A stretch of 24,664 nt of DNA from Brasilonema angustatum HA4187-MV1 (lineage in GTDB: Bacteria; Cyanobacteriota; Cyanobacteriia; Cyanobacteriales; Nostocaceae), in assembly GCA_019359695.1 (NCBI GenBank), contig JAHHGV010000081.1:1-24664 (forward strand), read 5' to 3'. Below the pieces are notes generated by a model. That model did no database searches. It was not told the DNA's origin and worked only from the letters and a program-made list of their open reading frames with translations. This document shows, in pieces, positions 1-24,664 of the stretch (within the stretch, counting starts at the first letter, position 1; each line of letters starts with the position of its first letter). The translations under genes and the position numbers were made by a program.

Positions 1-215
1 AATGGTCATCATCGCTGATATCACTCGTTTCCTCTAAGAAAACAGAAACGGTATGATTTTCCTGAGAACGGTCATCATCGCTGATATCACTTGTTTCCTC
101 TAAGAAAGCGCAAGCGGTATTATTTTCTTGAGAGCGCTCGCACTCATTCTCATCATCGCCATCGCTTGTCTTTGCGGTTTCCTCTAAGAAAGCGCAAGCG
201 GTATTATTTTCTTGA
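1..215. repeat. Tandem repeat of about 66 bp (coding on the minus strand). Each unit carries GTTTCCTCTAAGAA. This is the same array as 24517-24664.
   Basis: Units start near 3, 69 and 135. The GTTTCCTCTAAGAA core sits at 27-40, 93-106 and 178-191. Confidence 0.85.
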
Positions 216-403
216 GAGCGATCGCATTCCTGGTTAATACCAGAAATTAAGCCATCGTTATCATCAAAGTTAGTTTTTGCAATTTCAGGGTATGCCGTGC
301 CATCTTCCCAAGCTGGATCAGCTGCATACGCTGAATATTTTTTTCTCTTGCTCCTGGCTGGGGCGGAATAATTGCCCAAACTAAATAACTCGTTTTGTAT
401 CAT
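1..403 (-). CDS. 5' portion of an ORF that runs off the window start: an acidic protein with 22-aa tandem repeats (..SQENNTACAFLEETSDISDDD..). It continues in frame at 24579 if the replicon is circular.
   Basis: The ATG at 401-403 overlaps the TGA of the upstream gene (ATGA at 400-403). My hand translation (MIQNELFSLGNYSAPARSKRKKYSAYAADPAWEDG...) stays open down to base 1 (134 codons plus 1 nt). It is absent from the ORF track because it has no stop inside the window. Confidence 0.55.
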   Translation of the reverse strand, partial: MIQNELFSLGNYSAPARSKRKKYSAYAADPAWEDGTAYPEIAKTNFDDNDGLISGINQECDRSQENNTACAFLEETAKTSDGDDENECERSQENNTACAFLEETSDISDDDRSQENHTVSVFLEETSDISDDDH

Positions 404-3961: not shown

Positions 3962-4153
3962 ATGGGGAGAGGTAGACCAGGAGGTAACCCAAATTTGAGA
4001 GAGCATCAATTCACGAACGACGGAAGACCTGCTCGGAACAAAGTCTTGAGTATTCGGGTAACTGAGGAGGAGCTAACGGCTATTAGAAATTTCTTTGGAG
4101 ATCGCTGCTCAGAGCAGTGCAGAGACATCATTCTAAACCAATTGCAGCCATAA
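3962..4153 (+). CDS. Ribbon-helix-helix (CopG/MobC-like pattern) small DNA-binding protein
   Basis: AAGGAG lies 8 nt upstream of the ATG. A basic N-terminus (GRGRPGGNPNL) is followed by KVLSIRVTEEELTAIRNFF, typical of an RHH strand plus helix. It is followed by a strong terminator. Confidence 0.65.
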   Translation: MGRGRPGGNPNLREHQFTNDGRPARNKVLSIRVTEEELTAIRNFFGDRCSEQCRDIILNQLQP

Positions 4154-4178
4154 TTTGAAAAAGAAATACACCAAAGAG

Positions 4179-4249
4179 AAAGGGGTAAAGCTTTTTGAAT
4201 GCTTCACCCCTTTTTGTTTGGTTTCGTGGCGGGCAACGCAACCGCCACG
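4179..4249. terminator. Bidirectional intrinsic terminator pair between the convergent RHH gene and the adenine-starved gene
   Basis: Hairpin 1 pairs AAAGGGGTAAAGC (4179-4191) with GCTTCACCCCTTT (4201-4213) and is followed by TTTTTGTTTGGTTT. Hairpin 2 pairs CGTGGCGG (4225-4232) with CCGCCACG (4242-4249). On the minus strand the hairpins are followed by a T-rich tail. Confidence 0.7.
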
Positions 4250-4253
4250 AAAA

Positions 4254-4793
4254 CTAGAAAAGCGACAACTGAACTGGCGCGGGAGCGACCAACGCAGGAG
4301 AAAACTGAAACCAGCCAGGAGCACCAGACAAAGAAACCAAGCCCCAACCAACCGGACAAGGCAGTGAACCAAGGAAAACAAAACACGGCAAGCCAAGCCC
4401 AACACAAAAAGCTAGAGTGGACCAACTGCCAGAACCAAAACCAGCGAAGCAACGCGAGGAAGATGAGGACGGAACCAAGCCAGCCGGACACGGCGACGAA
4501 GGGAAAGAAACCAGCACACCATCAGCTGCCAAGAGCGCCAGAACAAAAGCCACCGAGCGACGAGCAAAAGCAGCACGACCTAAGCCAAACTGACCAGAAG
4601 CAACAGAGAAGACCCGCGCACCAGGGAACTGAGAACGAAAAAACTCATCAACGCCACGAGCGCACCCAACAAAAACCTGAGCACCGATTGGAACCGCCAA
4701 GGCAGCGGAAGACAGCGCAGAGGAAGACGCAGGCAGATGACGAGAGCCAGAAAAACCGAAGGTGTGAAAGTGGGAAAAAGCTGATGTAAGCAT
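4254..4793 (-). CDS. Adenine-starved CDS (179 aa), tentatively a SLOG/DprA/DUF2493-like Rossmann-fold protein
   Basis: This frame has clear 3-nt periodicity (GNT/NNT codons: GCT, GGT, GTT, TCT, CGT, TTT). A TATAAT-like box lies about 25-30 nt upstream of the ATG at 4791-4793, and the stop sits just before the terminator pair. Motif order is FSGSR ... VGCARGVDEF ... GRAAFARRS ... DGVLVSFPS ... GSGSWSTLA..GLGLP. There is no Lys, Asn or Tyr. Confidence 0.45.
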   Translation of the reverse strand: MLTSAFSHFHTFGFSGSRHLPASSSALSSAALAVPIGAQVFVGCARGVDEFFRSQFPGARVFSVASGQFGLGRAAFARRSVAFVLALLAADGVLVSFPSSPCPAGLVPSSSSSRCFAGFGSGSWSTLAFCVGLGLPCFVFLGSLPCPVGWGLVSLSGAPGWFQFSPALVAPAPVQLSLF

Positions 4794-5392
4794 GAAACTT
4801 GAGGAATTTTATGCTATTATTATAGCACGTATACACGTTAAATTAATAGTTTTTGTGAGTGAATGACGCAAACGCAGAGATAACACGCTGATAACACCTT
4901 CTTTTCTTCTTCTGCCGGGGTAGCGTAGCGGCGGCGCGGGAGCGCAGCGAACCGCGCAGAAACAACCGAGGAGGAAACAAATAACCGAAGTAGCGCGTGA
5001 GAGCAAGCGGCAAGGGCGTGGCAGCGCCGCCGCAAGCTTACCCAAACGAGTAAGCGTGAACTGCTTCAACGCGCGGGTAACGAATGCAAGCGCATTCCCT
5101 GGCGCAAAGTGCTTAAAAGCAAATCTTCAAGGGAAGCGATACGCGTCCTTTGAGTGCGCCCCCAAAGACTACGGGCACGCTTCCGCTATCGGGGCTAGCG
5201 TCAGCAAGCGGGCTTATCGCAGATTTCGGAAAGATTTCCTGTGTAAGCTTTTTTTGCGGGTTACCCATCGCACAGAAGTCTGTGGAAAAGTACTGTTTAC
5301 TATCCGGTTTTTCCACAATCAGCCAAATGACATCACTTTCGAGAGCAAACATTCGGAACATGGAAAGTAATGTCAATAGTTGAAAGACCTCG

Positions 5393-5776
5393 TCAGATGG
5401 GTGTATTTCCGTTACCTCCTTGTCTGAGCAGATATTCCCAAATACGCTGAATTTCGTTTCGGAATTCTTGGCGGTCAATGGCTGCTTGCTGCCTGTCTTG
5501 GGCTGCTTGCGCTCGGTCAAGTTCTGCTTGTGTGGCTAAGATATCTACTCGGTTGGTTACTTCAGCAACATTGGTAGTTAGTGCGTCTACTCTTTGGTTT
5601 ACTGCTGCGACATTTTCGGTTAACTGCTGGATGTTAGCAACCAGAACATCAATGGTGTTGCTTTGGGCGTTGATGTTAGCACTCTGGGCTAGCACTGCTT
5701 CGCCAACGTTGGCAAACAGAGTTTCTAAGCGGCTGAGTCGTTCTTCAATGCTTGGTGGTTGTCCTGCGTTGGTCAT
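5393..5776 (-). CDS. Coiled-coil protein (127 aa)
   Basis: AAGGAGG lies 5 nt upstream of the ATG. Heptad-like repeats are rich in N/V/A/Q (NVAAVNQRVDALTTNVAEVTNRVDIL). Confidence 0.7.
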   Translation of the reverse strand: MTNAGQPPSIEERLSRLETLFANVGEAVLAQSANINAQSNTIDVLVANIQQLTENVAAVNQRVDALTTNVAEVTNRVDILATQAELDRAQAAQDRQQAAIDRQEFRNEIQRIWEYLLRQGGNGNTPI

Positions 5777-8040: not shown

Positions 8041-9338
8041 GGGGTCTAGCCGGGATACGTGCAAAATGGGACACGATGCAAAGTTATGTTAAAAAAGTTG
8101 CTTTAAATTTTATGATGTGATGCTAAGGAAAAATCAAACTGATAACTTTAAGACAGTTTTGGCTGAAAAACCTCAAACATATCAGAGGCGTGCGATAGCC
8201 CAAAGGGCTGACGCTCCGCGTATCGTCATCTTCGTCCAAATGCAATCACCGAAAGAACTCAAACAACGATTATTAGGCGTGTTTTGGCTCTTTCATTGGA
8301 TGCTCTTGTCGGTTAAGTTAAAATAAAAGCCCCAATCTCATCTAATGTCTGCGGTATAATATTTAGATCTTCCGTGCAATTTGAAATGCAGCTAAGTTAA
8401 ACAGATGAATTTCGCCCTTAAATTGCTGTTCGATCGCGGTTCTCAATCCCGAAAATAGATTTACTCTCACTTGCGACTCTAAGGCAACGTATTGTGAACC
8501 GCTACTCAAATAATCGAGATACCGATCAACGCTATAGGTTTGTTCGCAAGGGAAGATTTCTGTGGAGGGAGGCTCAAACAATCCTGAATCCCCGACAGGT
8601 TTTCCCAAGCCTGCGGCAATTTCAGCTTGTTTTTCTCGACCTTCGTACGAAGGTGCGATCGCGGGCGCGTAAGCTTGATAAACCTGATTCAAAACTTGAT
8701 GAACTTCATGACTTGGCTCAAGCGTCAGGTTCCAAAGTAAAACGAGAGAACCATCCTCTCGTAACGTCTGTGATGCTTTCACATATTTGATGCCGGATGA
8801 TATCCAGTGCCAAGCATTTGCTGCTAGTACAATTTCATACGCTTGTGGTTGAACTTGCCACTCCTCGAAAGATTCCTGAAAGAGTTGAACCAGAGGAAAT
8901 GCTGCAAGACGACGTGCTGCAACTTGGCAGAAATCTCGATTCGGTTCTACCGCATCGATTGCACATCCCAACTGAGCAAAGTTAATCGTCGCAATTCCTG
9001 ACCCGCATCCGACTTCGAGAATGGTTGAGTCAGAGGAAAGGTGAGCGGCTTCAATCGCTCGCTGTATTAGTGCTTCAGGATAGCGGGGTCTGCCTCGATC
9101 ATAAGCTTCCACAACTGGCGTGTACCAAACCTTCCGTTGCTCTAAGTCTCGATTTGAATACTCATTAAATATTTTGACCGAATCTGCCATGATTCTTACC
9201 CGTGCTTGTCATTTTCAAGCTTAACTCTCTTGTCGCATCTCATGCTAAATAGGGGCAAGTTGGTAAATCAAGAAAGTAGGTTGTGTAACATTTTTTTTAC
9301 AACATGTCCCCTGAATGCGCGTATCCCGGCTTAACCCC
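8041..9338. mobile_element. TIR-bounded, transposase-less cassette of about 1.3 kb carrying a SAM methyltransferase, inserted into the 100-bp array
   Basis: GGGGTCTAGCCGGGATACGTGCAAAATGGGAC (8041-8072) matches the reverse complement of 9306-9338 (GGGGTTAAGCCGGGATACGCGCATTCAGGGGAC). It is flanked by direct AGCTT at 8036-8040 and 9339-9343. The repeat unit is restored if the element plus one AGCTT is removed. Confidence 0.65.
8363..9190 (-). CDS. Class I SAM-dependent methyltransferase (Methyltransf_11/25-like)
   Basis: Motif I is ILEVGCGSGIATINFAQLG, followed by an acidic post-I residue (AIDAVEPN). 275 aa. Confidence 0.8.
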   Translation of the reverse strand: MADSVKIFNEYSNRDLEQRKVWYTPVVEAYDRGRPRYPEALIQRAIEAAHLSSDSTILEVGCGSGIATINFAQLGCAIDAVEPNRDFCQVAARRLAAFPLVQLFQESFEEWQVQPQAYEIVLAANAWHWISSGIKYVKASQTLREDGSLVLLWNLTLEPSHEVHQVLNQVYQAYAPAIAPSYEGREKQAEIAAGLGKPVGDSGLFEPPSTEIFPCEQTYSVDRYLDYLSSGSQYVALESQVRVNLFSGLRTAIEQQFKGEIHLFNLAAFQIARKI

Positions 9339-9978: not shown

Positions 9979-12900
9979 CTACTTCGTTGCAGCACAACTA
10001 CTATTAGGCGCTGGCTGTTCACGCTGTGGACCAGTCTTAGTCGGATCATAAGCGACCAGCACCACCTCACCTTTTTCGTTATATATCCAACCTTGAGCAG
10101 GTACTATCTGTTTAACAGGTGGCTTTTTAGATGGTTGCTTTTGTGTTGGAGTTGTTAAACTTACTTTACTGGGGACAGGCTCAATTAAATCAACACGCAC
10201 ATTGTCACTACTGAGGATTTTATTTGGATCTGTTGGCAATCCCCCGCGTCCGGTGACAGTGAAAGTGCTACCAAAACCTTTGATACAGGGATTTTGAGCA
10301 ACCTGCTGTGCCGGATCAACCACAGTTTCTGTTAATTCAAATAACCCTTGGGTGGGGTCAATATCAACTACATTAATTAGCACATTACCACTCGACTGGT
10401 CATTTACCCCTGTGGCGGTGATGTCGCTTGTGTTTGGGGAAGCAGGATTACGAGACACAAAGCCAAAAATACCTCGGCTATTGATTTTGACATTACCGCC
10501 ACGGGAATTAGCAGAGTTAGCAGTGATATCGCTATTGTCAAAGCCAACCAGGACACCAGTATTAATATTGATGTTGCCGCCAATAACGTTTTCTCCTGTG
10601 GCGTTGGTTGTGATGTTGCTGTTGTTGCGCAAGATTAAATCTTTTGAAGTAATGTTAATTGTCGCTTGCTCCCTACTGGAGTCAACTTTAGCACTACGTG
10701 TATCGCCACTGAGTAAAGCATTGTTGTTTAAACGGATAGAGCGAGCATTTAATGTCATCTTGCCTGCGGTTCCTGTTCCGAAACTCTGCACGCTTACTCT
10801 TGCCCCATCTTGCACTAGCAAGGTATTGGTTCTAACTGTAAGATCACCCGCATCTCCTGTTGAGTTTCGATTTGCTTGAGCAAACAAGCCACTGGAAAGC
10901 TGACCATCAGCCCTTCTACCAATCAATTGCACATCTTGGGCATCAACAGTCAAACTACCCCCCTTGCCCGCACCAAAAGTGGTAGTACTTACCTGTGCTG
11001 TATCTCGCACTAGCAAAGTATTGGTTTTGATTGTAAGATCACCCGCATCCCCTGTTGAGTTTGGATTTGCATTAGCAAACAAGCCACTGCCATCACCATT
11101 AGCGCTTATACCAATCAATTGCACATCTTGGGCATCAACAGTCAAACTACCTCCCTTGCCCGCAGCATTAGTACTAGCATCTACCACTGCCCCATCTCGC
11201 ACGAGCAAGGAATTAGTTTTGATTGTCAAATCACCTGCATTCCCTGTTGAGTTTGCTTGAGCACTCAAGGCACTGGGAAGCCGACCATCAGCGCTTGTAC
11301 CAATCAGTTGCACATCTTGGGCATCAACAGTCAAACTACCCCCCTTGCCCGCACCGTAAGTGTTGTCACTTACCAGTGCCCCATCTCGCACGAGCAAGGT
11401 ATTGGTCTTGATTGTCAGATTACCCGCATTCCCTGTTGAGTTTGGCTGTGCAGAAGCAAACAAGCCACTGGAAACCCGACCATTAGCGCTTCTACCAATC
11501 AGTTGCACATCTTGGGCATCAACAGTCAAACTACCCCCCTTGCCCGCACCGGAAGTAGTAGTACTTACCTGTGCCCCATCTCGCACGAGCAAAGTATTGG
11601 TTTTGATAGTAATATCACCCGCATTCCCTATTGAGTTTCGCTGTGCATCAGCACTCAAGCTACTAGGAAAGCGACCATTAGCGCCTGTACCAATCAGTTG
11701 CACATCTTGGGCATCAACCCTTATATTTGCCCCCTTACCCGCACCGAAAGTGCTAGTATTTACCACTGCTCCATCTCGCACTAGCAAGGAATTGGTTTTG
11801 ATTATCAAATCACCTGCATCCCCTGTTGAGTTTTGCTGTGCAGAAGCACCCAAGCTACTGCCAAACCGACTATCAACGCTTCTACCAATCAATTGCACAT
11901 CTTGGGTATCAACAGTCAAACTACCCCCCTTGCCCGCACCGTAAGTACTAGTACTTACCTGTGCCCCACCCTCAAGCCGCAAGCTGCTAGCACTGATATT
12001 GACATCACCTCCCTGTCCATTTGCTCTTGATCCCACCTGATTAGCAATTCGACTGTTGTTAAGGTTTATTGCTCCTGTGGCATTAACCGAAATGTTTCCT
12101 GCTTGAGTATCAACTGTCCCCAAACCATCTCCTATTCCAGCCTGAAGCAAACTTCCTCCCGTCATCTCTAAATTACGGGCATTAACTGCAATACTACCGC
12201 CCCCACCTGAGCTAACATCAACGAGCGCAGCATTCGTCAGCGATACATCCGCTCTTTGCACTCCCACAGGAAAACTCAAACTTCCATCACCATTGAGTTC
12301 TATCGTCCCAGCAGCAGACAATCCTCCTAACTCAACTCGTCCTCCTGGTGCAAACAGTATTCCACCATCTAAGTTGACGTTACCACCCACCAGTGCTAAT
12401 GAATTTCCTTCTGGAACAGTAAGACCATTAACAACATTGCCATTATTATCAACAGCCCTCGACTGATTGCTGATATTTTTGAAATTCTCCCGATAGCTCA
12501 ACCCAACTGGAGCAGTTATCGTTAACAATGGTGGTGCTTGGGGATTCGTTGCACTAAACTCAAAATTATTCTTAAACAGCAAACTATTTGCCGTACTTCC
12601 CAAAAAAGAACCACCTACATCCAACCGCGCATTTCGTCCGAAGATAATTCCATTCGGGTTGATAAAAAACAAGTTCGCTTTGCCCAACACACCCAAAACA
12701 CCTTGAATGTTCGAGATATTCCCCCCAGTCACTCTGGTGAGTATGTTTGCAATCCCCGCTGGATTGGAAAAATAAGCTCCTCTACCAGCATTGATATTAA
12801 ATTCCTGAAAACTATGAAACAGGTTCGCCCCACGCTTTGCGCCCCCATCAATCCTGTCGCTAGGGATGCCCTTAATCACATCCTGTGTGACACGGGAGTT

Positions 12901-13020
12901 CTCCGCGCCCAGCGTGTTATCAGGAGTAATTTGTGCTTTGGCTACGGTAAAGTAGGTCAAGCTGAATACAGCTGCAAGGGGTAAGGTGAGGAGAAAGAGT
13001 GGGTGACGCACTTGTTCCAT
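9979..13020 (-). CDS. Filamentous-haemagglutinin-type exoprotein with an N-terminal two-partner-secretion (TPS) domain and a beta-helical repeat body
   Basis: Signal-peptide-like start MEQVRHPLFLLTLPLAAVFSLTYFTVAKA (ATG at 13018-13020). TPS hallmarks are NLFHSFQEFNI and NILTRVTGGNISNIQG...LFFINPNGIIFG. There are about 8 repeats of roughly 60 aa (GAGKGGSLTVDAQDVQLIG...NSTGNAGDLTIKTNTLLVRDGA). Confidence 0.85.
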   Translation of the reverse strand: MEQVRHPLFLLTLPLAAVFSLTYFTVAKAQITPDNTLGAENSRVTQDVIKGIPSDRIDGGAKRGANLFHSFQEFNINAGRGAYFSNPAGIANILTRVTGGNISNIQGVLGVLGKANLFFINPNGIIFGRNARLDVGGSFLGSTANSLLFKNNFEFSATNPQAPPLLTITAPVGLSYRENFKNISNQSRAVDNNGNVVNGLTVPEGNSLALVGGNVNLDGGILFAPGGRVELGGLSAAGTIELNGDGSLSFPVGVQRADVSLTNAALVDVSSGGGGSIAVNARNLEMTGGSLLQAGIGDGLGTVDTQAGNISVNATGAINLNNSRIANQVGSRANGQGGDVNISASSLRLEGGAQVSTSTYGAGKGGSLTVDTQDVQLIGRSVDSRFGSSLGASAQQNSTGDAGDLIIKTNSLLVRDGAVVNTSTFGAGKGANIRVDAQDVQLIGTGANGRFPSSLSADAQRNSIGNAGDITIKTNTLLVRDGAQVSTTTSGAGKGGSLTVDAQDVQLIGRSANGRVSSGLFASAQPNSTGNAGNLTIKTNTLLVRDGALVSDNTYGAGKGGSLTVDAQDVQLIGTSADGRLPSALSAQANSTGNAGDLTIKTNSLLVRDGAVVDASTNAAGKGGSLTVDAQDVQLIGISANGDGSGLFANANPNSTGDAGDLTIKTNTLLVRDTAQVSTTTFGAGKGGSLTVDAQDVQLIGRRADGQLSSGLFAQANRNSTGDAGDLTVRTNTLLVQDGARVSVQSFGTGTAGKMTLNARSIRLNNNALLSGDTRSAKVDSSREQATINITSKDLILRNNSNITTNATGENVIGGNININTGVLVGFDNSDITANSANSRGGNVKINSRGIFGFVSRNPASPNTSDITATGVNDQSSGNVLINVVDIDPTQGLFELTETVVDPAQQVAQNPCIKGFGSTFTVTGRGGLPTDPNKILSSDNVRVDLIEPVPSKVSLTTPTQKQPSKKPPVKQIVPAQGWIYNEKGEVVLVAYDPTKTGPQREQPAPNSSCAATK

Positions 13021-13232
13021 GTTTAAAAACAGTATTGTAAGAGGAGTCGTCAAATTACCGTCTTTAAATACTCATACCAGGTTTTTAGACAAAAGTGCGC
13101 TTTTTATAACTTTTTTTTGAAAAAAGGCACGGATAATTTCCTTAACTAAACTGTATTGGTTTCCCTTTCCCCCTTAACCTTTAACCTTTTCCCTGTCCTC
13201 CAGGCATTGACCTTTTCCCCCGACTTCTACTG

Positions 13233-15767: not shown

Positions 15768-15871
15768 TTATCGCTTCGCTCCTGGGTATAGAGGTGTGGG
15801 GGTGTAGGGGAAAGACTTGAAAATGTACACCCCTAAGAGTGCAATGGGGTTTTAGACCCCAACCGATTGCT

Positions 15872-15945
15872 CCCCCCCCCCTACACCCTTATACCCTTAT
15901 ACCCTTATACCCTTACACCCCTACACCCTTACACCCTTACACCCC
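15872..15945. repeat. C10 homopolymer followed by about 8 tandem octamers (CCCTTATA/CCCTTACA)
   Basis: The C-run is at 15872-15881 and octamers extend to 15945. They are complementary to GGGTATAGAGGTGTGGGGGTGTAGGGG at 15784-15810. Confidence 0.85.
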
Positions 15946-15965
15946 TTCTTTTTTACTTTGGTCAT

Positions 15966-17942
15966 ATGAACTCTTCTGTAGACTTGACTCAACATATGAC
16001 CAGCCTGTTTAAGGCTGGCGTGTTGGATGTCAATCTTTTTTCTTACCTCAAGTTACGCAAGCTGAACCCAACCGGACCAGTAACGCTTGACAGCAATGTT
16101 TACTCTGGTACTCAAATAAGTGCTGATTTATTTAACGTTGCGGCAGCACTATGGCAAAAGGGACTGGTCAAAATCAATCCGTTTCCTAACGTAACGGTGA
16201 GATTTTCTAATGAACCAGATGCATTGTCAGAAGCAGAGATACTGCGATCGCAAGATACTATCAGTTCATCAACTCATATCTTCAATGCACTGCAAGGCGA
16301 ATCTTCCAGACTGAACGCTGAGACAGTTGTCATCGATGACGCTTTTCGTACCAGATGGAAAGTTACAACTGATGACCTGCTTAGATATTTACCTGGTGTT
16401 TTGAAAAAAGCGTATGAAGCTGACAGATTAGATACCTTTTATTCTGCTAATCCATCTTTGGTATGGACAGCTACAGCTACACACAACCCCAGTGAGACTA
16501 CGGAAGCTGATTTAAAATCTTTGTTTGCCTTGGGTTTATCCAATGAAGCTTACTTCTTCTGGATTCTCAACGCTTTCTTGGAATTGCGATCGCCCATCCA
16601 AGCCGACCTTGCAGAAATTGGTGACGAGTGGGGACTTGACGCTGATAATGCACTTGGTGCAGCTGCTGACTTGGTTACTGCCAAAGTGATGACAACTTAC
16701 CAAGCGGATTCAATCAACGTAGTTTGGTTAAAAACCTTGTCAACACTTGGCACCGCAGAAATTGATTACGCTGGTGCATTGATGAGCGCAGAAGGCAAAA
16801 TGATGTATCAACTCTGGAAGTACAACAGTCCGGTTGAACCATCTTTGTTTTCAACGCTCAACGGTGTTACTCTAGCTAACTTCTATAAAAACCTTAGAAG
16901 AATCAAAGCAAAAGGCATTATTGATATTAGCACGTCAAATCTCACGGCTACTTGGTCAGCAGTTTACAACCCACCTCCACCATCAAATGCACTGAGGGCA
17001 CCAACAGGTGTTACAGTCACAGCAATCGACTCATCGAAAATTCGGGTGACTTGGACACAGCCAAGCTCAGGAGTTGCTGCAACAAACTGGCGTGTTATGT
17101 ATCGTGTGAAGAATAGCGGTGTTGCTTACTCAGAAAAGAATCCAGCAACTTCACCAGCTGTCGTTACTGGCTTGAGTGCTAGCACAGAGTATGAAGTATA
17201 TGTTTACTCTGAAGGCGGCGGTGACTTGAAACCATCTAACACGGCTTACGGTAGCACGACAGCTGCGAGTAGCGGTGGTAACGCTAGTGGTAGTGGTAGT
17301 GGTAGCGCTAGTGGTGGTAACAACACCCCAACAATCCCAACCAATCACACCATTTGGTTAAAGTTTGACCCAGGTGAACTGCAAACAAACTCTGGAAGCT
17401 ATGGACCAGTTGCAACAACAGGGGACTCAATTACCAGTGTCACCAATAGTGGGCACGGCAACACAGTCAAACTTGGTGAGAATAGTGGTTTTGTTGTGTA
17501 CAATCAACCACAACCAGCTGCATACACCAGAAGCGCTTGGATAAAAATCACAGAATATTTTGATTGGTCTGCTTTGTTTGGAGCAGAGACAGGAACAGAA
17601 GCCAACCGTCACAACTTGATGGTGAATGAAGATCATTCGTTTGCACTGTGGAGTAACTACGATTGGATAGCTACATATGATTGGGTAATTCCGTTGAACC
17701 AGTGGGTACACGTGGCAAGCACCTTTGAGAATGGTGCATTCAAGCTTTATGTAAACGGTGCGCTGGTCATGACTGAGAATAATCTCACTTATGCACCAGA
17801 CTCAACAAACAGCACAGTATTTATTGGATTGATGGGATTTGGAAATGCTTCTTGGAACAACTATATAGATGATGTCGTGTGGTATTCAAGAGCGTTAACC
17901 CAGGCTGAAGTTACGCAGTTGTATCAAGTTACGACTGTGTGA
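15966..17942 (+). CDS. Multidomain protein: four repeats of an approximately 85-aa (winged-helix-like?) domain, an FN3 domain, a Gly/Ser linker and a LamG/concanavalin-A-like lectin domain
   Basis: I prefer the ATG at 15966 (MNSSVDL...) because the upstream part of the track ORF is the octamer repeat. FN3: PTGVTVTAIDSSKIRVTWTQP...STEYEVYVYS. LamG_3-like: AWIKI...WVHVASTFENGAFKLYVNGALV...IDDVVWYSRALTQAEVTQLY. Confidence 0.8.
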   Translation: MNSSVDLTQHMTSLFKAGVLDVNLFSYLKLRKLNPTGPVTLDSNVYSGTQISADLFNVAAALWQKGLVKINPFPNVTVRFSNEPDALSEAEILRSQDTISSSTHIFNALQGESSRLNAETVVIDDAFRTRWKVTTDDLLRYLPGVLKKAYEADRLDTFYSANPSLVWTATATHNPSETTEADLKSLFALGLSNEAYFFWILNAFLELRSPIQADLAEIGDEWGLDADNALGAAADLVTAKVMTTYQADSINVVWLKTLSTLGTAEIDYAGALMSAEGKMMYQLWKYNSPVEPSLFSTLNGVTLANFYKNLRRIKAKGIIDISTSNLTATWSAVYNPPPPSNALRAPTGVTVTAIDSSKIRVTWTQPSSGVAATNWRVMYRVKNSGVAYSEKNPATSPAVVTGLSASTEYEVYVYSEGGGDLKPSNTAYGSTTAASSGGNASGSGSGSASGGNNTPTIPTNHTIWLKFDPGELQTNSGSYGPVATTGDSITSVTNSGHGNTVKLGENSGFVVYNQPQPAAYTRSAWIKITEYFDWSALFGAETGTEANRHNLMVNEDHSFALWSNYDWIATYDWVIPLNQWVHVASTFENGAFKLYVNGALVMTENNLTYAPDSTNSTVFIGLMGFGNASWNNYIDDVVWYSRALTQAEVTQLYQVTTV

Positions 17943-19031: not shown

Positions 19032-21281
19032 ATGAGCGAGCACCTAAGTCCAGAAGAAATTTTGCAGAGCATTCTCCAGAATGTTCAGATAGGTGGCAAT
19101 CTGACTACAGGGGATATTACCCAAATCCTAAATTTAATAGTTGTTATCAAACAGATTGATTCTTTCAAGCCGACTGAGATTCCTCAAAATGTTCCCCGCA
19201 GTGGCACGATTAAGTTTGTGGGTCGTGCCGAGGCACTAGAGAGGCTGCACCAAATGTTGCAACAGAACAATCAGATAGTGCTTGCTGCTATTGAGGGCAT
19301 GGGTGGAGTTGGGAAAACGGAGTTAGCCACCCAGTATGCACTAATTCACTTGCTAGTTAGCACCTATACGGGTGGTATTTGCTGGTTACGAGCTAGAGAT
19401 GAAGATATTGGTTTGCAAATTGTGCAGTTTGCCATGACAGACTTAGGCTTGCAACCTCCAGATAATTTAGATTTACAACAGCAAACACGTTGGTGCTGGT
19501 CACGTTGGTATCAGGGAAATGTGCTAGTCGTGCTGGATGATGTCAACGATTACCAGAAGGTGGAGCCATACCTACCACCGCAATCACCCCGTTTTAAGGT
19601 GCTAATTACGACACGCTTGCAGTTAGACGACCTGACTGAGTCATCTAGATTTATCTTAGATGTGTTAAGTGAGTCGGCAGCAATTGAACTTCTTGAGGGG
19701 TGGATTGAGGCTTCAAAAATTAAACAGGAATTGGCAGATGCCAAAGAACTTTGTCAATGGCTGGGCTATTTGCCTCTAGCGCTAAATCTAGTAGGACGGT
19801 ATGTTAAGAAGCGGAAACTGTCCTTAGCAGAAATGCTGCGGAGGTTAAAGGAAAAAAAGTTAAGTCATGAATCTTTGGTACGTGATAGCAATGATCGTAC
19901 TTTGGCGTTAAATATTAAGCGTGGAGTTGAAGCTGCCTTTGAGTTGAGTTGGGAAGAATTAAGTAAAGATGCTCAAAAGCTAGGGTGTCTGCTCAGTTTA
20001 TTTGCTTTGGCTCCGTTTCCTTGGTCGCTGGTAGAAAGTGCTGCCCCTGAGCAAGACGCAGAAGAACTGGAAGATGCCAGAGTTGAATTAGAAAACTTGC
20101 ACTTGCTTATGGGTGAAGATAGTTATCAGTTACATCCACTGATTCAAGAGTTTCTCAGAGACAAGCAAAATAACTTAGCTGTTAAAGAAGAACAAAAATA
20201 TAATTACTGCGTTGCAATGGTTGCTGTTGCGGAGAAAATTCCTCAAAGCCTTATATTACAAGAAATTACTACATCCACTATTGTTATCCCCCACCTTGCT
20301 GAAGTTGCCACTGTTTACAATAATTGGTTAAGTGATGAAGATTTAATTATGCCTTTTAGGGCCTTAAGTCGATTTTTTCAAGGTCAAGGAGCTTATGCAC
20401 AAGCTTTACCTTGGTTAGAGCAATGTTTATCAGTTGCAAAAAATCGCTTGGGAGAAGAGCATCCCCATGTTGCCACCAGTTATAACAACTTGGGAGTACT
20501 CTACTGTGAACAAGGACTGTACAACGAAGCTGAACTACTGTACAAAAAAGCATTGGAACTCAGGCTACACCTGCTGGGAGAAGAGCATCCCCATGTCACT
20601 ACCAGTTACAACAACTTAGCAGCAGTCTACCAATCGCTTGGACGGTACAACGAAGCTGAACCATTGTACATTAAAGCATTGGAACTCAGGCTACGCCGGG
20701 GAGAAGAGCATCCCGATGTTGCCACTACTTTCAACAATTTGGCTAATCTCTACCGTGGCCAAAAACGGTACAGTGAAGCTGAACCACTCTACCGAAAAGC
20801 ATTGGAACTCAGGCTACGCCGGGGAGAAGAGCATCCCAATGTTGCCGAGACTTACAACAACCTGGCAGGACTCTACTCAGACCAAGATCGGTACAGTGAA
20901 GCTGAACCACTGTTCATAAAAGCATTGGAACTTTATCAACACTTACTGGGAGAAGAGCATCCCAATGTTGCCACCACTTACAACAACCTGGCAGCAGTCT
21001 ACTCAGACCAAAAACGGTACAGTGAAGCTGAACCACTCTACCGAAAAGCTTTAGAACTAAGGCAACGCTTACTGGGAGAAAAGCATCCTCAGATCGCCAC
21101 CACTTACAACAACTTGGCTAATCTCTACCGTGACCAAGAACGGTACAGTGAAGCTCAACTACTATACCAAAAAGCTTTGAAAATTGCTGAACTTAGCTTA
21201 GGAGTTGATCATGACATTACAAAACTTATCCGTGAAAATATGACAGAAAATATGACATTTTTGGCAGATAATGACGCTTAA
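19032..21281 (+). CDS. NB-ARC (STAND NTPase) protein with C-terminal TPR repeats (NLR architecture) and a short N-terminal signalling motif
   Basis: Walker A is GMGGVGKT (19296-19319), Walker B is VLVVLDDV, plus ITTR and GYLPLAL (GLPL motif). There are about 7 TPR_12-type 42-aa repeats (EEHP.VA..YNNLA.LY..Q.RY.EAEPLY.KALEL). The N-terminus is LQNVQIGGNLTTGDITQ. Confidence 0.9.
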   Translation: MSEHLSPEEILQSILQNVQIGGNLTTGDITQILNLIVVIKQIDSFKPTEIPQNVPRSGTIKFVGRAEALERLHQMLQQNNQIVLAAIEGMGGVGKTELATQYALIHLLVSTYTGGICWLRARDEDIGLQIVQFAMTDLGLQPPDNLDLQQQTRWCWSRWYQGNVLVVLDDVNDYQKVEPYLPPQSPRFKVLITTRLQLDDLTESSRFILDVLSESAAIELLEGWIEASKIKQELADAKELCQWLGYLPLALNLVGRYVKKRKLSLAEMLRRLKEKKLSHESLVRDSNDRTLALNIKRGVEAAFELSWEELSKDAQKLGCLLSLFALAPFPWSLVESAAPEQDAEELEDARVELENLHLLMGEDSYQLHPLIQEFLRDKQNNLAVKEEQKYNYCVAMVAVAEKIPQSLILQEITTSTIVIPHLAEVATVYNNWLSDEDLIMPFRALSRFFQGQGAYAQALPWLEQCLSVAKNRLGEEHPHVATSYNNLGVLYCEQGLYNEAELLYKKALELRLHLLGEEHPHVTTSYNNLAAVYQSLGRYNEAEPLYIKALELRLRRGEEHPDVATTFNNLANLYRGQKRYSEAEPLYRKALELRLRRGEEHPNVAETYNNLAGLYSDQDRYSEAEPLFIKALELYQHLLGEEHPNVATTYNNLAAVYSDQKRYSEAEPLYRKALELRQRLLGEKHPQIATTYNNLANLYRDQERYSEAQLLYQKALKIAELSLGVDHDITKLIRENMTENMTFLADNDA

Positions 21282-22221: not shown

Positions 22222-22809
22222 TTAGATACAAGAAATACTAACATTCTCTAAAAATTGAGCTTGCTTGTCGTTAAGACAGTACACATTTTCTTTCCAGTTA
22301 CCTGAAAATTTGGCGTGCCACACTTTTGCAGGTAAATAATCAATCTTGGCATTTGCTGCACACTGCTCATCGTGCAACAAGTCACCAATAAACCATATGT
22401 CGTCTAAGCGCCCGTATTCTTCAAGCGCTTTCTGAATCATTCCAAGCTCAGGTTTTCTAAAAGAGTTTTGATTACCACGTCTAGAGTAGACAAACGAATG
22501 GGGAAGAACTTTATACACCTCCTCGCCGTCGCTTGGGGCAAAGTAAATTTTACTAACCTGGGGTAAAAGGTTCATGGTTGCCTGCATCTCTTCAATGCAC
22601 TCCAACGGAGATTTAAGAATTGGTACACAGCTTTGATTACTTATCCCAACTATGTCGTACCCATGCAACTTAAATGATTCTACCCCCGCCTGCACTCCTG
22701 GAATAAGTTTTATATCCTCTTTAGCTGGAGACTGCTTAAATGATTTTCCGCTTTTGGAGAAAGTCAAGGTATTGTCAACACTGCAAAATATTAGTTTCTT
22801 GGTAGTCAT
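22222..22809 (-). CDS. HAD-superfamily phosphatase-like protein (GmhB/histidinol-phosphatase/PNK 3'-phosphatase-like subfamily pattern)
   Basis: Motif I region is LIFCSVDNTLT, motif II GISNQS, then RKPELGM, and motif IV FIGDLLHDEQ. Confidence 0.7.
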   Translation of the reverse strand: MTTKKLIFCSVDNTLTFSKSGKSFKQSPAKEDIKLIPGVQAGVESFKLHGYDIVGISNQSCVPILKSPLECIEEMQATMNLLPQVSKIYFAPSDGEEVYKVLPHSFVYSRRGNQNSFRKPELGMIQKALEEYGRLDDIWFIGDLLHDEQCAANAKIDYLPAKVWHAKFSGNWKENVYCLNDKQAQFLENVSISCI

Positions 22810-23266: not shown

Positions 23267-24664
23267 TTACAACGGGTTAGCCCTTTTCCTACCCTTAGAA
23301 TTCTTGATGAACTCAATAGTTTTATCTAATGGAGTATCAAGCTTTTGCATAGCTCTTATCATTGATAGAACTCGGTGAGGTATACACCCAAGACTTCTGT
23401 TTCTCCATTCACCGTTTACTTTTTCTTCCCAGTTAAAACCCCATCGCCAATGAGTAACATCATTTTCGTCACGTTCACCATCAATTCGCGGATAAGTGAC
23501 AATCAACCCATTCTTCAGGGTTTTGTTTTCTAGATACTTGTATAGACAACCTCTAGCACGTCGTTCATCTACTGATGCTTTCGAGGTATAAAACTCTGTG
23601 GAGTCCGATAGCGGCAAGTCTTGGGTCAAAAGTGTTACCGAGGGCTTCGCGTCGTCGTCGGATGATGCGATCGCCTTTAGGAAGTCCCAAGCTGTAAGAG
23701 AGTTGGTTGGGTCGGTCCAGTCGGTTGGAATTCCTAGCGATTCCTCTAAGAATTGAGGGTTTATTACTTGTCCCCGCTCCAAGTGTCCTGTTTGTCTCAA
23801 GTGCTGCTCTAATTTGTTCAATCCAGGGGGACGGGATTTCACTGAACTGTATGCTGTTGGCGACGGCAACCAATAGCAATCTTTGTCTGACAAATCGACT
23901 TCCAACACTGCCACCGGAAACCAAAGCACCCTCAAGTCGATATCCGAGCGTGTCGAAGATTTCCGCCAATCGATTAATGTAGAGTTCTTTGGCTCCTGGT
24001 CGGAGGGGACAATTGAGCAAGCCTGGGACGTTTTCAATGACACAATACTTTGGTCTAACTCGCTCGACGATTTTGACAACAAAGGGGAAGCAGTCTCTCT
24101 CGTCGTCTGCACCGAGTCGCATTCCTCTGATACTAAATGGGGGGCATGGAGTGGAACAGGAGATGATGTCTGCTTCTGGCAGTGACTCAAGCTTGGCGAT
24201 GTCTCCGAAGTTTTCGACGCCTGGGTATCGTTTTGCAAGGATTCCACAGCAGTAGTCGTCGATTTCGGCAACTCCAACGAGTTGCAATCCAAGGGCAGCA
24301 CCTGCGAAACAGTATCCTGCACCAATTCCTGAGCACAAATCAAATTGCTTGAGTCTTCTTTGTCCTTCCATTCCTTCCATGCCTGTTCGTATTCGTTTAA
24401 GTTTGGATAATCGTCTGGGTCTGGTGCTTCTTCGCTAGAATCCAAGAAGATGAGCAACTGTCCATCCTGTTCCTTCTGGAATACGCCTGTACTATTGAAG
24501 TCTTTAGGATTCCACCTGTCATCATCGCTGATATCACTCGTTTCCTCTAAGAAAGCGCAAGCGGTATTATTTTCCTGAGAATGGTCATCATCGCTGATAT
24601 CACTCGTTTCCTCTAAGAAAACAGAAACGGTATGATTTTCCTGAGAACGGTCATCATCGCTGAT
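23267..24664 (-). CDS. Second long ORF in another frame, open to the window end. It continues the acidic repeat ORF from 1-403, overlaps the whole methyltransferase gene, and ends in an approximately 100-aa C-terminal domain.
   Basis: The frame has no stop from 24664 down to 23267 and is in phase with the 1-403 ORF across the 85-bp terminal identity. It contains NPQFLEESLGIPTDWTD (23711-23761), a C5-methyltransferase motif IX-like sequence, and a normal-looking C-terminus (GCLYKYLENKTLKNGLIVTYPRIDGERDENDVTHWRWGFNWEE...). The middle part is Ser/Thr-rich and looks like off-frame sequence. Confidence 0.45.
   Translation of the reverse strand: MSDDDRSQENHTVSVFLEETSDISDDDHSQENNTACAFLEETSDISDDDRWNPKDFNSTGVFQKEQDGQLLIFLDSSEEAPDPDDYPNLNEYEQAWKEWKDKEDSSNLICAQELVQDTVSQVLPLDCNSLELPKSTTTAVESLQNDTQASKTSETSPSLSHCQKQTSSPVPLHAPHLVSEECDSVQTTRETASPLLSKSSSELDQSIVSLKTSQACSIVPSDQEPKNSTLIDWRKSSTRSDIDLRVLWFPVAVLEVDLSDKDCYWLPSPTAYSSVKSRPPGLNKLEQHLRQTGHLERGQVINPQFLEESLGIPTDWTDPTNSLTAWDFLKAIASSDDDAKPSVTLLTQDLPLSDSTEFYTSKASVDERRARGCLYKYLENKTLKNGLIVTYPRIDGERDENDVTHWRWGFNWEEKVNGEWRNRSLGCIPHRVLSMIRAMQKLDTPLDKTIEFIKNSKGRKRANPL
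23565..24380 (-). CDS. DNA (cytosine-5)-methyltransferase, unusually short (271 aa) with a minimal target-recognition region
   Basis: Motif I is FDLCSGIGAG (24315-24344), motif IV PCPPFS (24132-24149), motif VI ENVPGL, motif VIII RQRLLLVAV, and a motif X-like ALGNTFDPRLAAIG (23622-23645). Confidence 0.8.
   Translation of the reverse strand: MEGMEGQRRLKQFDLCSGIGAGYCFAGAALGLQLVGVAEIDDYCCGILAKRYPGVENFGDIAKLESLPEADIISCSTPCPPFSIRGMRLGADDERDCFPFVVKIVERVRPKYCVIENVPGLLNCPLRPGAKELYINRLAEIFDTLGYRLEGALVSGGSVGSRFVRQRLLLVAVANSIQFSEIPSPWIEQIRAALETNRTLGAGTSNKPSILRGIARNSNRLDRPNQLSYSLGLPKGDRIIRRRREALGNTFDPRLAAIGLHRVLYLESISR
24517..24664. repeat. Tandem coding repeat of about 66 bp, continuation of the array at 1-215
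   Basis: GTCATCATCGCTGATATCACTCGTTTCCTCTAAGAAA recurs. 24580-24664 is identical to 1-85. Confidence 0.85.

What the first reader, a model, noticed from the sequence alone, without database searches (positions are those of the whole stretch)
23267..24457. C5 methyltransferase locus encoded across two overlapping long ORFs, with motifs split between frames
One frame (23565-24380) carries C5-methyltransferase motifs I, IV, VI and VIII, and a motif X-like GNTFDPRLAAIG. It leaves only about 45 aa for a target-recognition region, and its motif IX is weak.

The other frame is open across the whole gene, 396 codons in the track and 571 if joined through the circular junction. It carries a much better motif IX (NPQFLEESLGIPTDWTD, 23711-23761) and a well-composed approximately 100-aa C-terminal domain (23267-23570).

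Possible explanations:
- An ancestral fusion protein broken by compensating frameshifts.
- Indel errors in the assembly. A G5 run at 23826-23830 lies exactly where a 1-nt change would join motif VIII to the motif IX frame.
- Programmed frameshifting.
- Genuine dual coding, with the Ser/Thr-rich middle of the long ORF overprinted on the methyltransferase.
Basis: partly seen in the sequence, partly recalled or inferred. Interest (0 to 1): 0.65.

Follow-up and report, generated by a model that had tools for sequence, protein, structure and literature searches.

The report
Split cytosine methyltransferase in two overlapping frames
A cyanobacterial plasmid gene for a DNA cytosine methyltransferase lies, in another reading frame, wholly inside a larger gene that carries the enzyme's missing recognition piece; over 50 cyanobacterial genomes conserve this layout, which has one characterised precedent (M.EcoHK31I).

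Summary

- **Frame A** (23565-24380, minus strand) is a complete member of a compact cyanobacterial C5-methyltransferase family of 263-297 aa. It has motifs I-VIII and X but no target-recognition domain (TRD) or motif IX.
- **Frame B** (+1 relative to A) is a gene of about 593 aa. It starts at window 403, runs across the contig ends and stops at 23267.
- **Conservation of the layout:** B is stop-free across all of A in 37 of 51 full-length related loci at 35-55% identity (about 4.8 stops expected). The +2 frame is broken as usual.
- **Alternating selection:** codon-position entropy shows A constrained over motifs I-VIII, B constrained over about 57 codons (LPSPTA...NPxFLE..P.GWTDP, 23709-23871), then A again over motif X.
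- **Real domains in B:** in relatives B carries Dam and ASCH domains on either side of the overlap.
- **Frameshifting:** no conserved slippery site exists. The G5 run is present in only about 20 of 51 loci.

Best reading: genuine dual coding of a split enzyme. A supplies the catalytic large domain and B supplies the small domain within a multidomain protein. This is a new variant of the M.EcoHK31I alpha/beta arrangement. Assembly of A and B in trans is inferred, not shown.

The parts
23565..24380 (-). Frame A gene: compact C5 DNA methyltransferase, 271 aa, with motifs I-VIII, a connector and motif X. I call it alpha-like.
   Evidence: ORF. PF00145 E 9e-26. Full-length family of 263-297 aa. AlphaFold pTM 0.77, and the fold matches the M.HhaI and M.HaeIII large domain.
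23871..24359 (-). Motifs I-VIII of A. Only frame A is constrained here. Frame B reads it as an unconstrained, stop-free Ser/Thr-rich linker.
   Evidence: Mean entropy at A codon positions 1/2/3 is 0.99/0.73/1.39. B stops: 16 observed against 131.5 expected in 51 loci. Apparent B 'motifs' in this stretch are +1 shadows of A motifs.
23709..23871 (-). Frame B constrained segment (WLPSPTAYSSVKSRPPGLNKLE...NPQFLEESLGIPTDWTDP). I infer it to be the small domain, a minimal TRD plus motif IX. Frame A reads the same DNA as a mostly unconstrained connector.
   Evidence: Entropy flips to 1.41/0.88/0.83, so B's third codon position is the most variable. B consensus residues are 0.9-1.0 conserved. 139 cluster representatives match the segment. 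One B stop observed against 55 expected. AlphaFold of A gives pLDDT below 50 for residues 201-235.
23808..23825 (-). Doubly constrained spot. In frame A: W (23823-23825), Q (23814-23816) and R (23808-23810) of PSPWIEQIR. In frame B: PPG..KLE over the same bases. It includes the G5 run at 23826-23830.
   Evidence: Invariant W and Q in A are achieved through invariant B-synonymous third positions. The C5/G5 run itself occurs in only about 20 of 51 loci.
23568..23690 (-). Motif X block of A (LGLPKGDRIIRRRREALGNTFDPRLAAIGLHRVLYLESISR). Frame B is again an unconstrained linker.
   Evidence: Entropy 1.01/0.72/1.37. Invariant G, R, R and GN. Confident helices at 238-270.
23267..24664 (-). Frame B gene, 3' part. 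It runs from the window end down to the stop at 23267.
   Evidence: 51% identical over 415 aa to the 489-aa protein P0105.
1..403 (-). Frame B gene, 5' part. ATG at 401-403, GGGAGG at 408-413. N-terminus MIQNELFSLGNYSAP..., followed by FLEETSDISDDD repeat units.
   Evidence: The N-terminus is 62% identical to P0105 residues 1-45.
23285..23551 (-). C-terminal domain of B (GCLYKYLENK...HWRWGFNWEEK...). It is a Nostocales-wide domain of unknown function.
   Evidence: 27 homologues. pLDDT 80-94. No Pfam hit and no PDB fold match.
24518..24664 (-). 66-bp tandem repeat inside B that continues at window 1 to about 230. The contig ends fall inside it.
24369..24400 (-). Internal initiation region of A inside B. 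ATGs at 24378-24380 and 24369-24371. The B codons EYEQAW overlie it.
   Evidence: In 31 of 51 relatives a GAGG-type Shine-Dalgarno sequence lies 6-16 nt upstream of A's ATG, within B's 'EYEEAW' (GAATATGAGGAGGCATGG). In the window it is weakened to GAACAGG.

Best explanation
The same DNA encodes two proteins, and each frame is selected only where its protein needs it.

**Protein A (271 aa).** It initiates internally and is the catalytic large domain of a C5 DNA methyltransferase: motifs I-VIII, a dispensable connector of about 40-60 aa, then the motif X helices. It has no TRD and no motif IX.

**Protein B (about 593 aa, +1 frame).** It starts upstream at window 403. It reads through A's motif I-VIII region as a disordered Ser/Thr-rich linker. 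It then encodes a conserved segment of about 57-65 aa (W-L-P-S/T-P-x-A ... R-P-P-G-x-x-K-L-E ... N-P-x-F-L-E ... P-x-G-W-T-D-P). This segment corresponds to the TRD and motif IX small domain of single-chain phage-type C5 methyltransferases. B then reads through A's motif X region as a second linker and ends in a separate C-terminal domain. In relatives, B also carries Dam and ASCH domains.

**Inferred mechanism.** A docks non-covalently on the small-domain segment of B to form an active, sequence-specific m5C methyltransferase. M.EcoHK31I alpha and beta work this way.

**Shown versus inferred.** Shown here: both frames are conserved and open, selection alternates between them, and both carry real domains. 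Inferred: that both are translated, that they associate, and that the complex methylates DNA.
For: **A is a real, complete gene.**
- PF00145 E 9e-26.
- About 24 full-length cyanobacterial homologues with a conserved C-terminus.
- The profile aligns with M.HhaI residues 12-181, including the stretch after motif VIII.
- AlphaFold pTM 0.77. Residues 10-200 and 238-270 are confident and 201-235 are disordered. Foldseek's top hits are M.HhaI and M.HaeIII.

**B is kept open.**
- The +1 frame is stop-free over all of A in 37 of 51 full-length loci, giving ORFs of 400-1196 codons, while the +2 frame breaks every 12-100 codons.
- The synonymous shuffle expects 4.75 stops against 0.45 observed. The +2 control shows 15.4 observed against 14.1 expected.
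- Stops are depleted in all three sub-regions.

**Selection alternates A / B / A.**
- W, Q and R of frame A stay invariant inside the B-constrained stretch. Both frames must therefore be read there.

**B carries genuine domains in the same frame on both sides of the overlap.**
- Dam is N-terminal in L003 and C-terminal in L029, L037, L042, L051 and L054. ASCH is N-terminal in L051 and L054.

**The B segment is MTase-derived.**
- Single-frame relatives join motif VIII, or motif X, directly to it: P0207, P0241, P0229, P0246, P0247.
- hhalign places it on the FVEWLIGLPQYWVTG...LCGN region of the canonical enzyme P0071.

**A has its own initiation signal.**
- Shine-Dalgarno-like GAGG plus ATG in 31 of 51 loci.

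**Precedent.**
- M.EcoHK31I beta (motif IX) is encoded entirely in another frame of the alpha gene (motifs I-VIII, X), and both chains are required for activity (PMC2836561, PMC3404938).
Against: - There is no expression, interaction or methylation data for any member.
- The B segment gets no PF00145 hit and no PDB sequence hit. The hhalign match to a canonical motif IX is weak (E 0.083).
- A hypothetical A-B-A chimera does not score better than A alone against Pfam.
- At about 60 aa the B segment is short for a TRD.
- In the window the Shine-Dalgarno sequence before A's ATG is weak. The B-frame internal ATG conserved in 44 of 51 relatives is absent from the window.
- A few loci are fused in one frame (L058 and L050, A into B; P0229, P0246 and P0247, B into A). 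Covalent versions may therefore exist, or these may be sequencing errors.
- A structure prediction of A together with B could not be run.
Confidence: 0.65

Rival explanations
1. Programmed ribosomal frameshifting makes one chain. Ribosomes start in A, shift +1 after motif VIII into B for the TRD and motif IX, then shift -1 back into A for motif X. The product would be a conventional single-chain methyltransferase.
For: The A / B / A selection pattern is exactly the order VIII, TRD/IX, X of a canonical enzyme. Single-frame B-into-A and A-into-B variants exist.
Against: - There is no conserved slippery sequence at either junction. The A-to-B region varies in sequence, the C5 run occurs in only about 20 of 51 loci, and an X_XXY_YYZ heptamer occurs in 1 of 51.
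- The B-to-A junction lies in a length-variable region.
- Frameshifting does not explain why B stays open for about 190 codons upstream over motifs I-VII (42 of 51 loci against 3.6 expected) and downstream into Dam and other domains.
- It does not explain why A stays open through the connector.
- It does not explain why A's W, Q and R are invariant 20 codons into the B-constrained stretch.
Confidence: 0.1
2. The two frames are both real but functionally unrelated. A alone is the whole enzyme, a minimal or relaxed-specificity methyltransferase, or an inactive one. The conserved B segment is a binding motif of the multidomain B protein that has nothing to do with A.
For: - A folds as a complete large domain.
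- B's NPxFLEE resembles the PE(N/I/K)FLEE repeats found elsewhere in B-type proteins that have no methyltransferase overlap.
- The B segment has no significant hit to solved methyltransferases.
Against: - No C5 methyltransferase is known to work without a small domain. This rests on established knowledge of M.HhaI and M.HaeIII as summarised in PMC3404938.
- The B segment always sits exactly between motif VIII and motif X of A.
- It is contiguous with those motifs in single-frame relatives.
- It aligns to the motif IX position of P0071.
- The M.EcoHK31I precedent shows that such complementation occurs.
Confidence: 0.2
3. Artefact or decay: assembly indels or a recently broken pseudogene produce the appearance of two frames.
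For: A homopolymer (G5) lies in the overlap. A few MAG loci (L050, L058) do look frameshifted.
Against: The same layout appears in more than 50 species-level genomes, including finished plasmids. Synonymous sites are saturated, yet both frames remain open.
Confidence: 0.02

Closest known systems
M.EcoHK31I (E. coli HK31; Lee, Kam & Shaw 1995, as described in PMC2836561 and PMC3404938)
   Same: It is a C5 methyltransferase made of two polypeptides read from the same DNA in different frames. [quoted passage not shown] Both are needed for activity.
   Different: - In M.EcoHK31I a small beta (176 aa by my recollection) is nested inside alpha, and alpha keeps the TRD.
- In the window the catalytic gene is nested inside a much longer ORF of 400-1200 codons.
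- Here the other frame supplies the whole TRD-plus-motif-IX segment.
- Here that frame is fused to further domains: Dam, ASCH and a Nostocales C-terminal domain.
- Sequence homology to M.EcoHK31I was not tested because no sequence was available.
- A short-beta form like EcoHK31I does occur in relatives: P0243-P0245, L033, L038, L039, L066 and pCC7120alpha.
M.AquI (Agmenellum quadruplicatum; Karreman & de Waard 1990, via PMC3404938)
   Same: It is a cyanobacterial C5 methyltransferase split into two subunits.
   Different: In M.AquI the split is sequential: alpha has motifs I-VIII plus part of the TRD, and beta has the rest of the TRD plus motifs IX-X. By my recollection the two ORFs overlap only at their ends. 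Motif X stays with IX in M.AquI, whereas here motif X stays with the catalytic chain.
Engineered split C5 methyltransferases (M.SssI and M.HhaI fragments; PMC3404938)
   Same: Large-domain and small-domain fragments reassemble non-covalently. The best split sites lie between motif VIII and the TRD.
   Different: Those are artificial two-piece splits. Here the small domain is excised from the chain, and the large domain is closed by a linker joining VIII to X.
Long overlapping genes in bacteria (e.g. the Pseudomonas aeruginosa antisense cases, PMC8850804)
   Same: They are long ORFs in an alternative frame with evidence of purifying selection.
   Different: Those cases are antisense and evolutionarily young. 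This one is same-strand, about 816 nt, shared by many cyanobacterial genera, and both products belong to recognisable protein families.

Membership tests
C5 DNA methyltransferase (Pfam PF00145) | Motif I (FxGxG AdoMet loop), motif IV (PC catalytic Cys), motif VI (ENV) and motif VIII (QxRxR) in one chain | tested here: met
   Frame A has DLCSGIGAG, TPCPPFS, ENVPGLL and RQRLLLVAV. PF00145 E 9e-26. It aligns with M.HhaI residues 12-181.
C5 DNA methyltransferase (Pfam PF00145) | Motif X (GN...) closing the large domain | tested here: met
   ALGNTFDPRLAAIG in frame A. G and N are invariant in the family. Confident C-terminal helices.
C5 DNA methyltransferase (Pfam PF00145) | TRD and motif IX (small domain) in the same polypeptide, between motifs VIII and X | tested here: not met
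   Frame A's stretch between VIII and X is unconstrained and predicted disordered. The Pfam match stops at profile position 181 of 324. The motif IX-like segment is in frame B.
M.EcoHK31I-type two-chain C5 methyltransferase with overlapping frames | Catalytic chain with motifs I-VIII and X but lacking IX | tested here: met
M.EcoHK31I-type two-chain C5 methyltransferase with overlapping frames | [quoted passage not shown] | tested here: met
   NPxFLE..P.GWTDP lies in the +1 frame. It is constrained in frame B across 51 loci and is virtually stop-free. Its identity as motif IX rests on weak profile evidence and on single-frame relatives.
M.EcoHK31I-type two-chain C5 methyltransferase with overlapping frames | The second chain (beta) is small and lies wholly within the alpha gene, and the TRD stays in alpha | tested here: not met
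   In the window, B (about 593 aa) encloses A. A has no room for a TRD. Short nested B forms exist only in some relatives.
M.EcoHK31I-type two-chain C5 methyltransferase with overlapping frames | Both polypeptides are made and both are required for methylation | not testable with these tools
   This needs expression and methylation assays.
Programmed ribosomal frameshift gene | Conserved slippery site, with or without a stimulator, at the frame junction | tested here: not met
M.AquI-type sequential alpha/beta split | Beta carries motifs IX and X downstream of alpha, with only a terminal overlap | tested here: not met
   Motif X is in the same frame and ORF as motifs I-VIII, and the overlap is total.

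The most novel reading that the evidence does not exclude
This is a widespread and so far unrecognised class of 'entangled' DNA-modification modules on cyanobacterial plasmids. A multidomain scaffold protein carries a minimal TRD and motif IX, together with Dam, ASCH and other domains. It hosts, in its -1 frame, the separately translated catalytic domain of a C5 methyltransferase. One transcript would then yield a hub that assembles a multi-specificity methyltransferase. At about 800 nt of fully nested, same-strand overlap with alternating purifying selection, it would be among the longest and best-supported overlapping gene pairs in bacteria. It would also show how a split enzyme can arise through compensating frameshifts followed by extension of the second frame.
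Probability: 0.5. Interest if true: 0.8.

Novelty: new variant of a known kind. Interest (0 to 1): 0.72.

Why it matters
- **Overlapping genes.** Long same-strand overlapping genes in bacteria are rare and often disputed. This one has unusually clean comparative evidence: more than 50 genomes, saturated synonymous sites, frame-specific constraint that switches twice, and real Pfam domains in both frames.
- **A family, not a curiosity.** It extends the single characterised case of a methyltransferase completed by an alternative-frame polypeptide (M.EcoHK31I) to a whole family. It adds a new topology, with the catalytic gene nested inside a multidomain partner.
- **Annotation.** Gene callers report only one of the two genes, or truncate one of them (AP018315.1, AP018275.1). 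They also name the non-catalytic frame 'C-5 cytosine-specific DNA methylase'.
- **Testability.** Members sit on plasmids of tractable strains (Nostoc PCC 7120 pCC7120alpha, T. variabilis ATCC 29413), so the model can be tested directly.
- **Engineering.** A natural, evolved split between large and small domains is of interest for engineering split methyltransferases.

Tried and rejected
- **megablast of the locus against PLSDB:** no match.
- **Pfam and NCBIfam on the frame B ORF:** nothing found.
- **Hypothetical A-B-A chimeras against Pfam:** they scored 6-9 bits lower than A alone and did not extend the match to motifs IX-X. This test does not support a single-chain reading, and it says nothing about identifying motif IX.
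- **Profile of the B segment against PDB sequences:** only chance hits.
- **Profile search of the B segment in the word-indexed protein database:** only 6 hits, though these usefully included short stand-alone B proteins and B-into-A fusions.
- **'Motifs' in B over A's motifs I-VIII:** I first read PHLANPSQ, KMSQDCS and AGTMxNG as canonical TRD elements. The codon analysis showed they are +1 shadows of A's SPPCQPFS, ENVPGLL and GYDAEW, and I dropped that idea.
- **Fold search of B's C-terminal domain:** no significant match.
- **Lee et al. 1995 (PMC306636):** not held.
- **Literature searches for a prior description of the cyanobacterial family:** none found.
- **G5 run as a frameshift or error site:** rejected because it is not conserved.
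Full report
**What is there.** On the minus strand, the ORF listing gives two overlapping ORFs. Frame A is 23565-24380 (271 aa). Frame B is 23267-24457 (396 aa from a TTG) and stays open to the window end. B is the +1 frame relative to A. Frame A matches Pfam DNA_methylase (PF00145, E 9e-26), but only over profile positions 2-181 of 324, which is motifs I-VIII. Frame B has no Pfam or NCBIfam hit.

**Both frames have homologues.** The last 210 aa of B find 27 Nostocales proteins. Most of these share only the C-terminal domain, GCLYKYLENK...HWRWGFNWEEK. P0003 aligns over nearly 300 aa, including the Ser/Thr-rich middle. Its locus, L001, has the methyltransferase frame overlapping it in the same way. 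Frame A finds about 24 full-length cyanobacterial 'DNA cytosine methyltransferases' of 263-297 aa at 35-55% identity. They share a conserved C-terminus, W.EQ.R ... R..R.ALGN.LDPRVA..AL.RVLYL. A is therefore a complete family member and not a fragment.

**The layout is conserved.** A scan of one genome per species returned 73 loci. In nearly all complete ones the +1 frame is stop-free across the entire methyltransferase gene and continues on both sides, giving ORFs of 400-1196 codons. The +2 frame breaks every 12-100 codons.

I shuffled synonymous codons within each gene:

| Frame | Stops observed (mean) | Stops expected (mean) |
|---|---|---|
| +1 (frame B) | 0.45 | 4.75 |
| +2 (control) | 15.4 | 14.1 |

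Zero +1 stops were seen in 37 of 51 loci, and the window itself gives P = 0.008.

The depletion holds separately in each of three regions:

| Region of A | B stops observed | B stops expected |
|---|---|---|
| Over motifs I-VII | 16 | 131.5 |
| Central segment | 1 | 55.3 |
| Over motif X | 6 | 55.6 |

Five of the six stops over motif X are the natural B stop of a short-B subfamily. This excludes assembly error and recent decay.

**Which frame is selected where.** I built a codon alignment of 51 full-length loci and measured nucleotide entropy at A's codon positions 1, 2 and 3. A's position 3 is B's position 2, and A's position 1 is B's position 3.

| Region | Window coordinates | Entropy at A pos. 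1/2/3 | Frame selected |
|---|---|---|---|
| Motifs I-VIII | 23871-24359 | 0.99 / 0.73 / 1.39 | A |
| Central segment | 23709-23871 | 1.41 / 0.88 / 0.83 | B |
| Motif X block | 23568-23690 | 1.01 / 0.72 / 1.37 | A |

- Over motifs I-VIII, B's amino acids are not conserved. Its apparent motifs (PHLANPSQ, KMSQDCS, AGTMxNG) are just the +1 reading of A's SPPCQPFS, ENVPGLL and GYDAEW.
- Over the central segment, B reads LPSPGALSS.G..RPPG..KLE..LKK.G.L.KGEV.NP.FLE..F.LP.GWTDP at 0.9-1.0 conservation, while A's residues vary.
- There is an exception inside the central segment. W and Q of A's 'PTPW.EQ.R' are invariant and its R is 90% conserved, and W and Q are held by invariant B-synonymous sites. 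Both frames must therefore be read in this stretch.
- AlphaFold of A with its family alignment agrees. Residues 10-200 and 238-270 are confident and residues 201-235 fall below pLDDT 50, with pTM 0.77. The model matches the M.HhaI and M.HaeIII large domain.

**B is a real multidomain gene.**
- In the window it starts at ATG 401-403, preceded by GGGAGG at 408-413.
- It passes through a 66-bp tandem repeat that spans the contig ends. After trimming the 16-19-nt terminal overlap it reads 593-594 aa.
- Its two pieces match the 489-aa protein P0105: 51% identity over 415 aa, and 62% over the first 45 aa.
- In relatives the same frame carries Dam (PF05869) upstream (L003) or downstream (L029, L037, L042, L051, L054) of the overlap. 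ASCH lies upstream in L051 and L054. D12-class adenine methyltransferase domains occur in P0175 and P0186.
- Having domains on both sides in one frame requires translation through the overlap.
- B's own C-terminal domain folds confidently (pLDDT 80-94) but matches nothing in the PDB.

**What the B segment is.**
- Single-frame relatives join it directly to motif VIII. P0207 reads ...APHLRERVFVVAYTTSYSGKHRPGQTKLDLKLRQLG..NPQFVEWLMGFPTDWTD.
- Other single-frame relatives join it directly to motif X: P0229, P0246 and P0247 read ...GWT.P...R.RRAALGN....
- hhalign places it on P0071's FVEWLIGLPQYWVTG...LCGN, the motif IX position of a canonical enzyme, but only weakly (E 0.083).
- Neither the PDB sequence profile search nor Pfam recognises it.
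- My reading of it as the small domain (minimal TRD plus motif IX) is therefore well motivated but not proven.

**Mechanism.** The large domain of a C5 methyltransferase is built from motifs I-VIII plus X, and the small domain from the TRD plus motif IX (PMC3404938). Frame A encodes exactly the former and frame B's constrained segment exactly the latter. M.EcoHK31I is a characterised precedent. Its beta chain (motif IX) is encoded entirely in another frame of the alpha gene (motifs I-VIII, X and TRD), and both chains are needed (PMC2836561).

I therefore propose trans-assembly of A with B. A appears to initiate on its own. In 31 of 51 loci a GAGG-type Shine-Dalgarno sequence lies 6-16 nt upstream of A's ATG. 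The B 'motif' EYEEAW (GAATATGAGGAGGCATGG) is probably the shadow of that signal.

Frameshifting is unlikely, for four reasons:
- No slippery site is conserved.
- The B-to-A junction is length-variable.
- Frameshifting would not explain why both frames stay open throughout.

**Variants.**
- Some relatives have a short B. P0243-P0245 are 98-99 aa and P0227 is 130 aa; P0243 and P0244 start at the ATG that is conserved in 44 of 51 loci. In L033, L038, L039 and L066, B stops just after the segment.
- pCC7120alpha of Nostoc PCC 7120 has a 238-aa A (WP_010999822.1) with a 162-aa B nested inside it, the M.EcoHK31I topology.
- A few loci are fused in one frame (L050 and L058, A into B). These may be sequencing errors or genuine covalent forms.

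**Annotation and literature.** GenBank records treat the locus inconsistently. AP018315.1 calls only B and names it 'C-5 cytosine-specific DNA methylase'. AP018275.1 calls A plus a truncated B. I found no paper describing this cyanobacterial family.

**Verdict.** This is a real, conserved case of dual coding and a new variant of the M.EcoHK31I kind of split methyltransferase. Dual coding itself I rate at about 0.9. Functional complementation of A by B is inferred, and I put the full model at 0.65.

Noticed in passing
window 24518-24664 and 1 to about 230 (minus strand, inside frame B): A 66-bp tandem repeat encodes FLEETSDISDDDRSQENHTVSV units. Short 'xFLEE' motifs (PE(N/I/K)FLEE) recur as repeats in many B-type proteins just before the C-terminal domain (P0007, P0014, P0021, P0023, P0026). 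They resemble the NPxFLEE core of the motif IX-like segment. Their function is unknown. The contig ends fall inside the repeat, so its copy number is uncertain.
   Followed up: partly
window 23285-23551 (minus strand): A C-terminal domain, GCLYKYLENKKLKDG..YPRV...HWRWGFNWEEKIDGEWKGRSIG...EEII.FI, is attached to many unrelated N-termini in Nostocales. AlphaFold is confident (pLDDT 80-94; beta-sheet plus two helices). It has no Pfam family and no PDB fold match. Some relatives end instead in a different module, G.G.I.WRTITK.GK.Y.Q..Y......K..YIPK..L.
   Followed up: partly
L076 (AP018315.1 247714-249186); L077 (AP018275.1 85059-87663): Public annotation is inconsistent. One record calls only the long non-catalytic frame and names it a C-5 cytosine methylase. 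The other calls the catalytic gene plus a truncated remainder of the second frame.
   Followed up: yes
L078 (NC_003276.1, Nostoc PCC 7120 pCC7120alpha, 284941-285657): A model-strain relative has a 238-aa methyltransferase with altered motifs (IENPTGLL; GL in place of GN in motif X). A 162-aa +1-frame ORF nested inside it ends at INPEFLRWLLGFPLE. It sits next to dnaB, an ASCH gene and DUF1392. It may be a partly decayed member, or a short-beta form like M.EcoHK31I.
   Followed up: partly
L058 3001-5664; L050; proteins P0224, P0229, P0246, P0247: Sporadic loci have the two frames fused into one: A into B before or at motif VIII, or B into A between motifs IX and X. L058 gives a 901-aa chain with motifs I-VIII, TRD/IX, ASCH and Dam but no motif X. 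Whether these are sequencing errors or natural covalent variants is unresolved.
   Followed up: partly
window 4000-5500: This stretch has unusual composition: GC about 0.50 against about 0.41 elsewhere, and AT skew up to +0.47. Several long ORFs overlap on both strands. The + strand ORF at 4199-4789 is a low-complexity K/Q/E/T/P-rich protein.
   Followed up: no
window 9979-13053 (-), 15867-17942 (+), 19032-21281 (+), 8363-9190 (-), 22222-22809 (-): The neighbouring genes are: a 1024-aa protein with a two-partner-secretion TPS domain; an fn3 plus LamG protein; an NB-ARC/TPR (STAND-type) protein; a class I SAM methyltransferase; and a PNK3P/HAD-like phosphatase. No restriction endonuclease was seen among the ORFs scanned. 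The methyltransferase therefore looks like an orphan on a plasmid-like replicon.
   Followed up: partly
alignment column 239 of 51 loci (not present in the window, about 23939-23945): The nucleotide string CGGGTAYGATGCRGAATGG is almost invariant in relatives. It gives A's GYDAEW, a B-frame ATG (44 of 51 loci) and a fixed GGG glycine codon. It may be an internal start for a short B isoform. The window's subfamily (GYRLEG) lacks it.
   Followed up: partly
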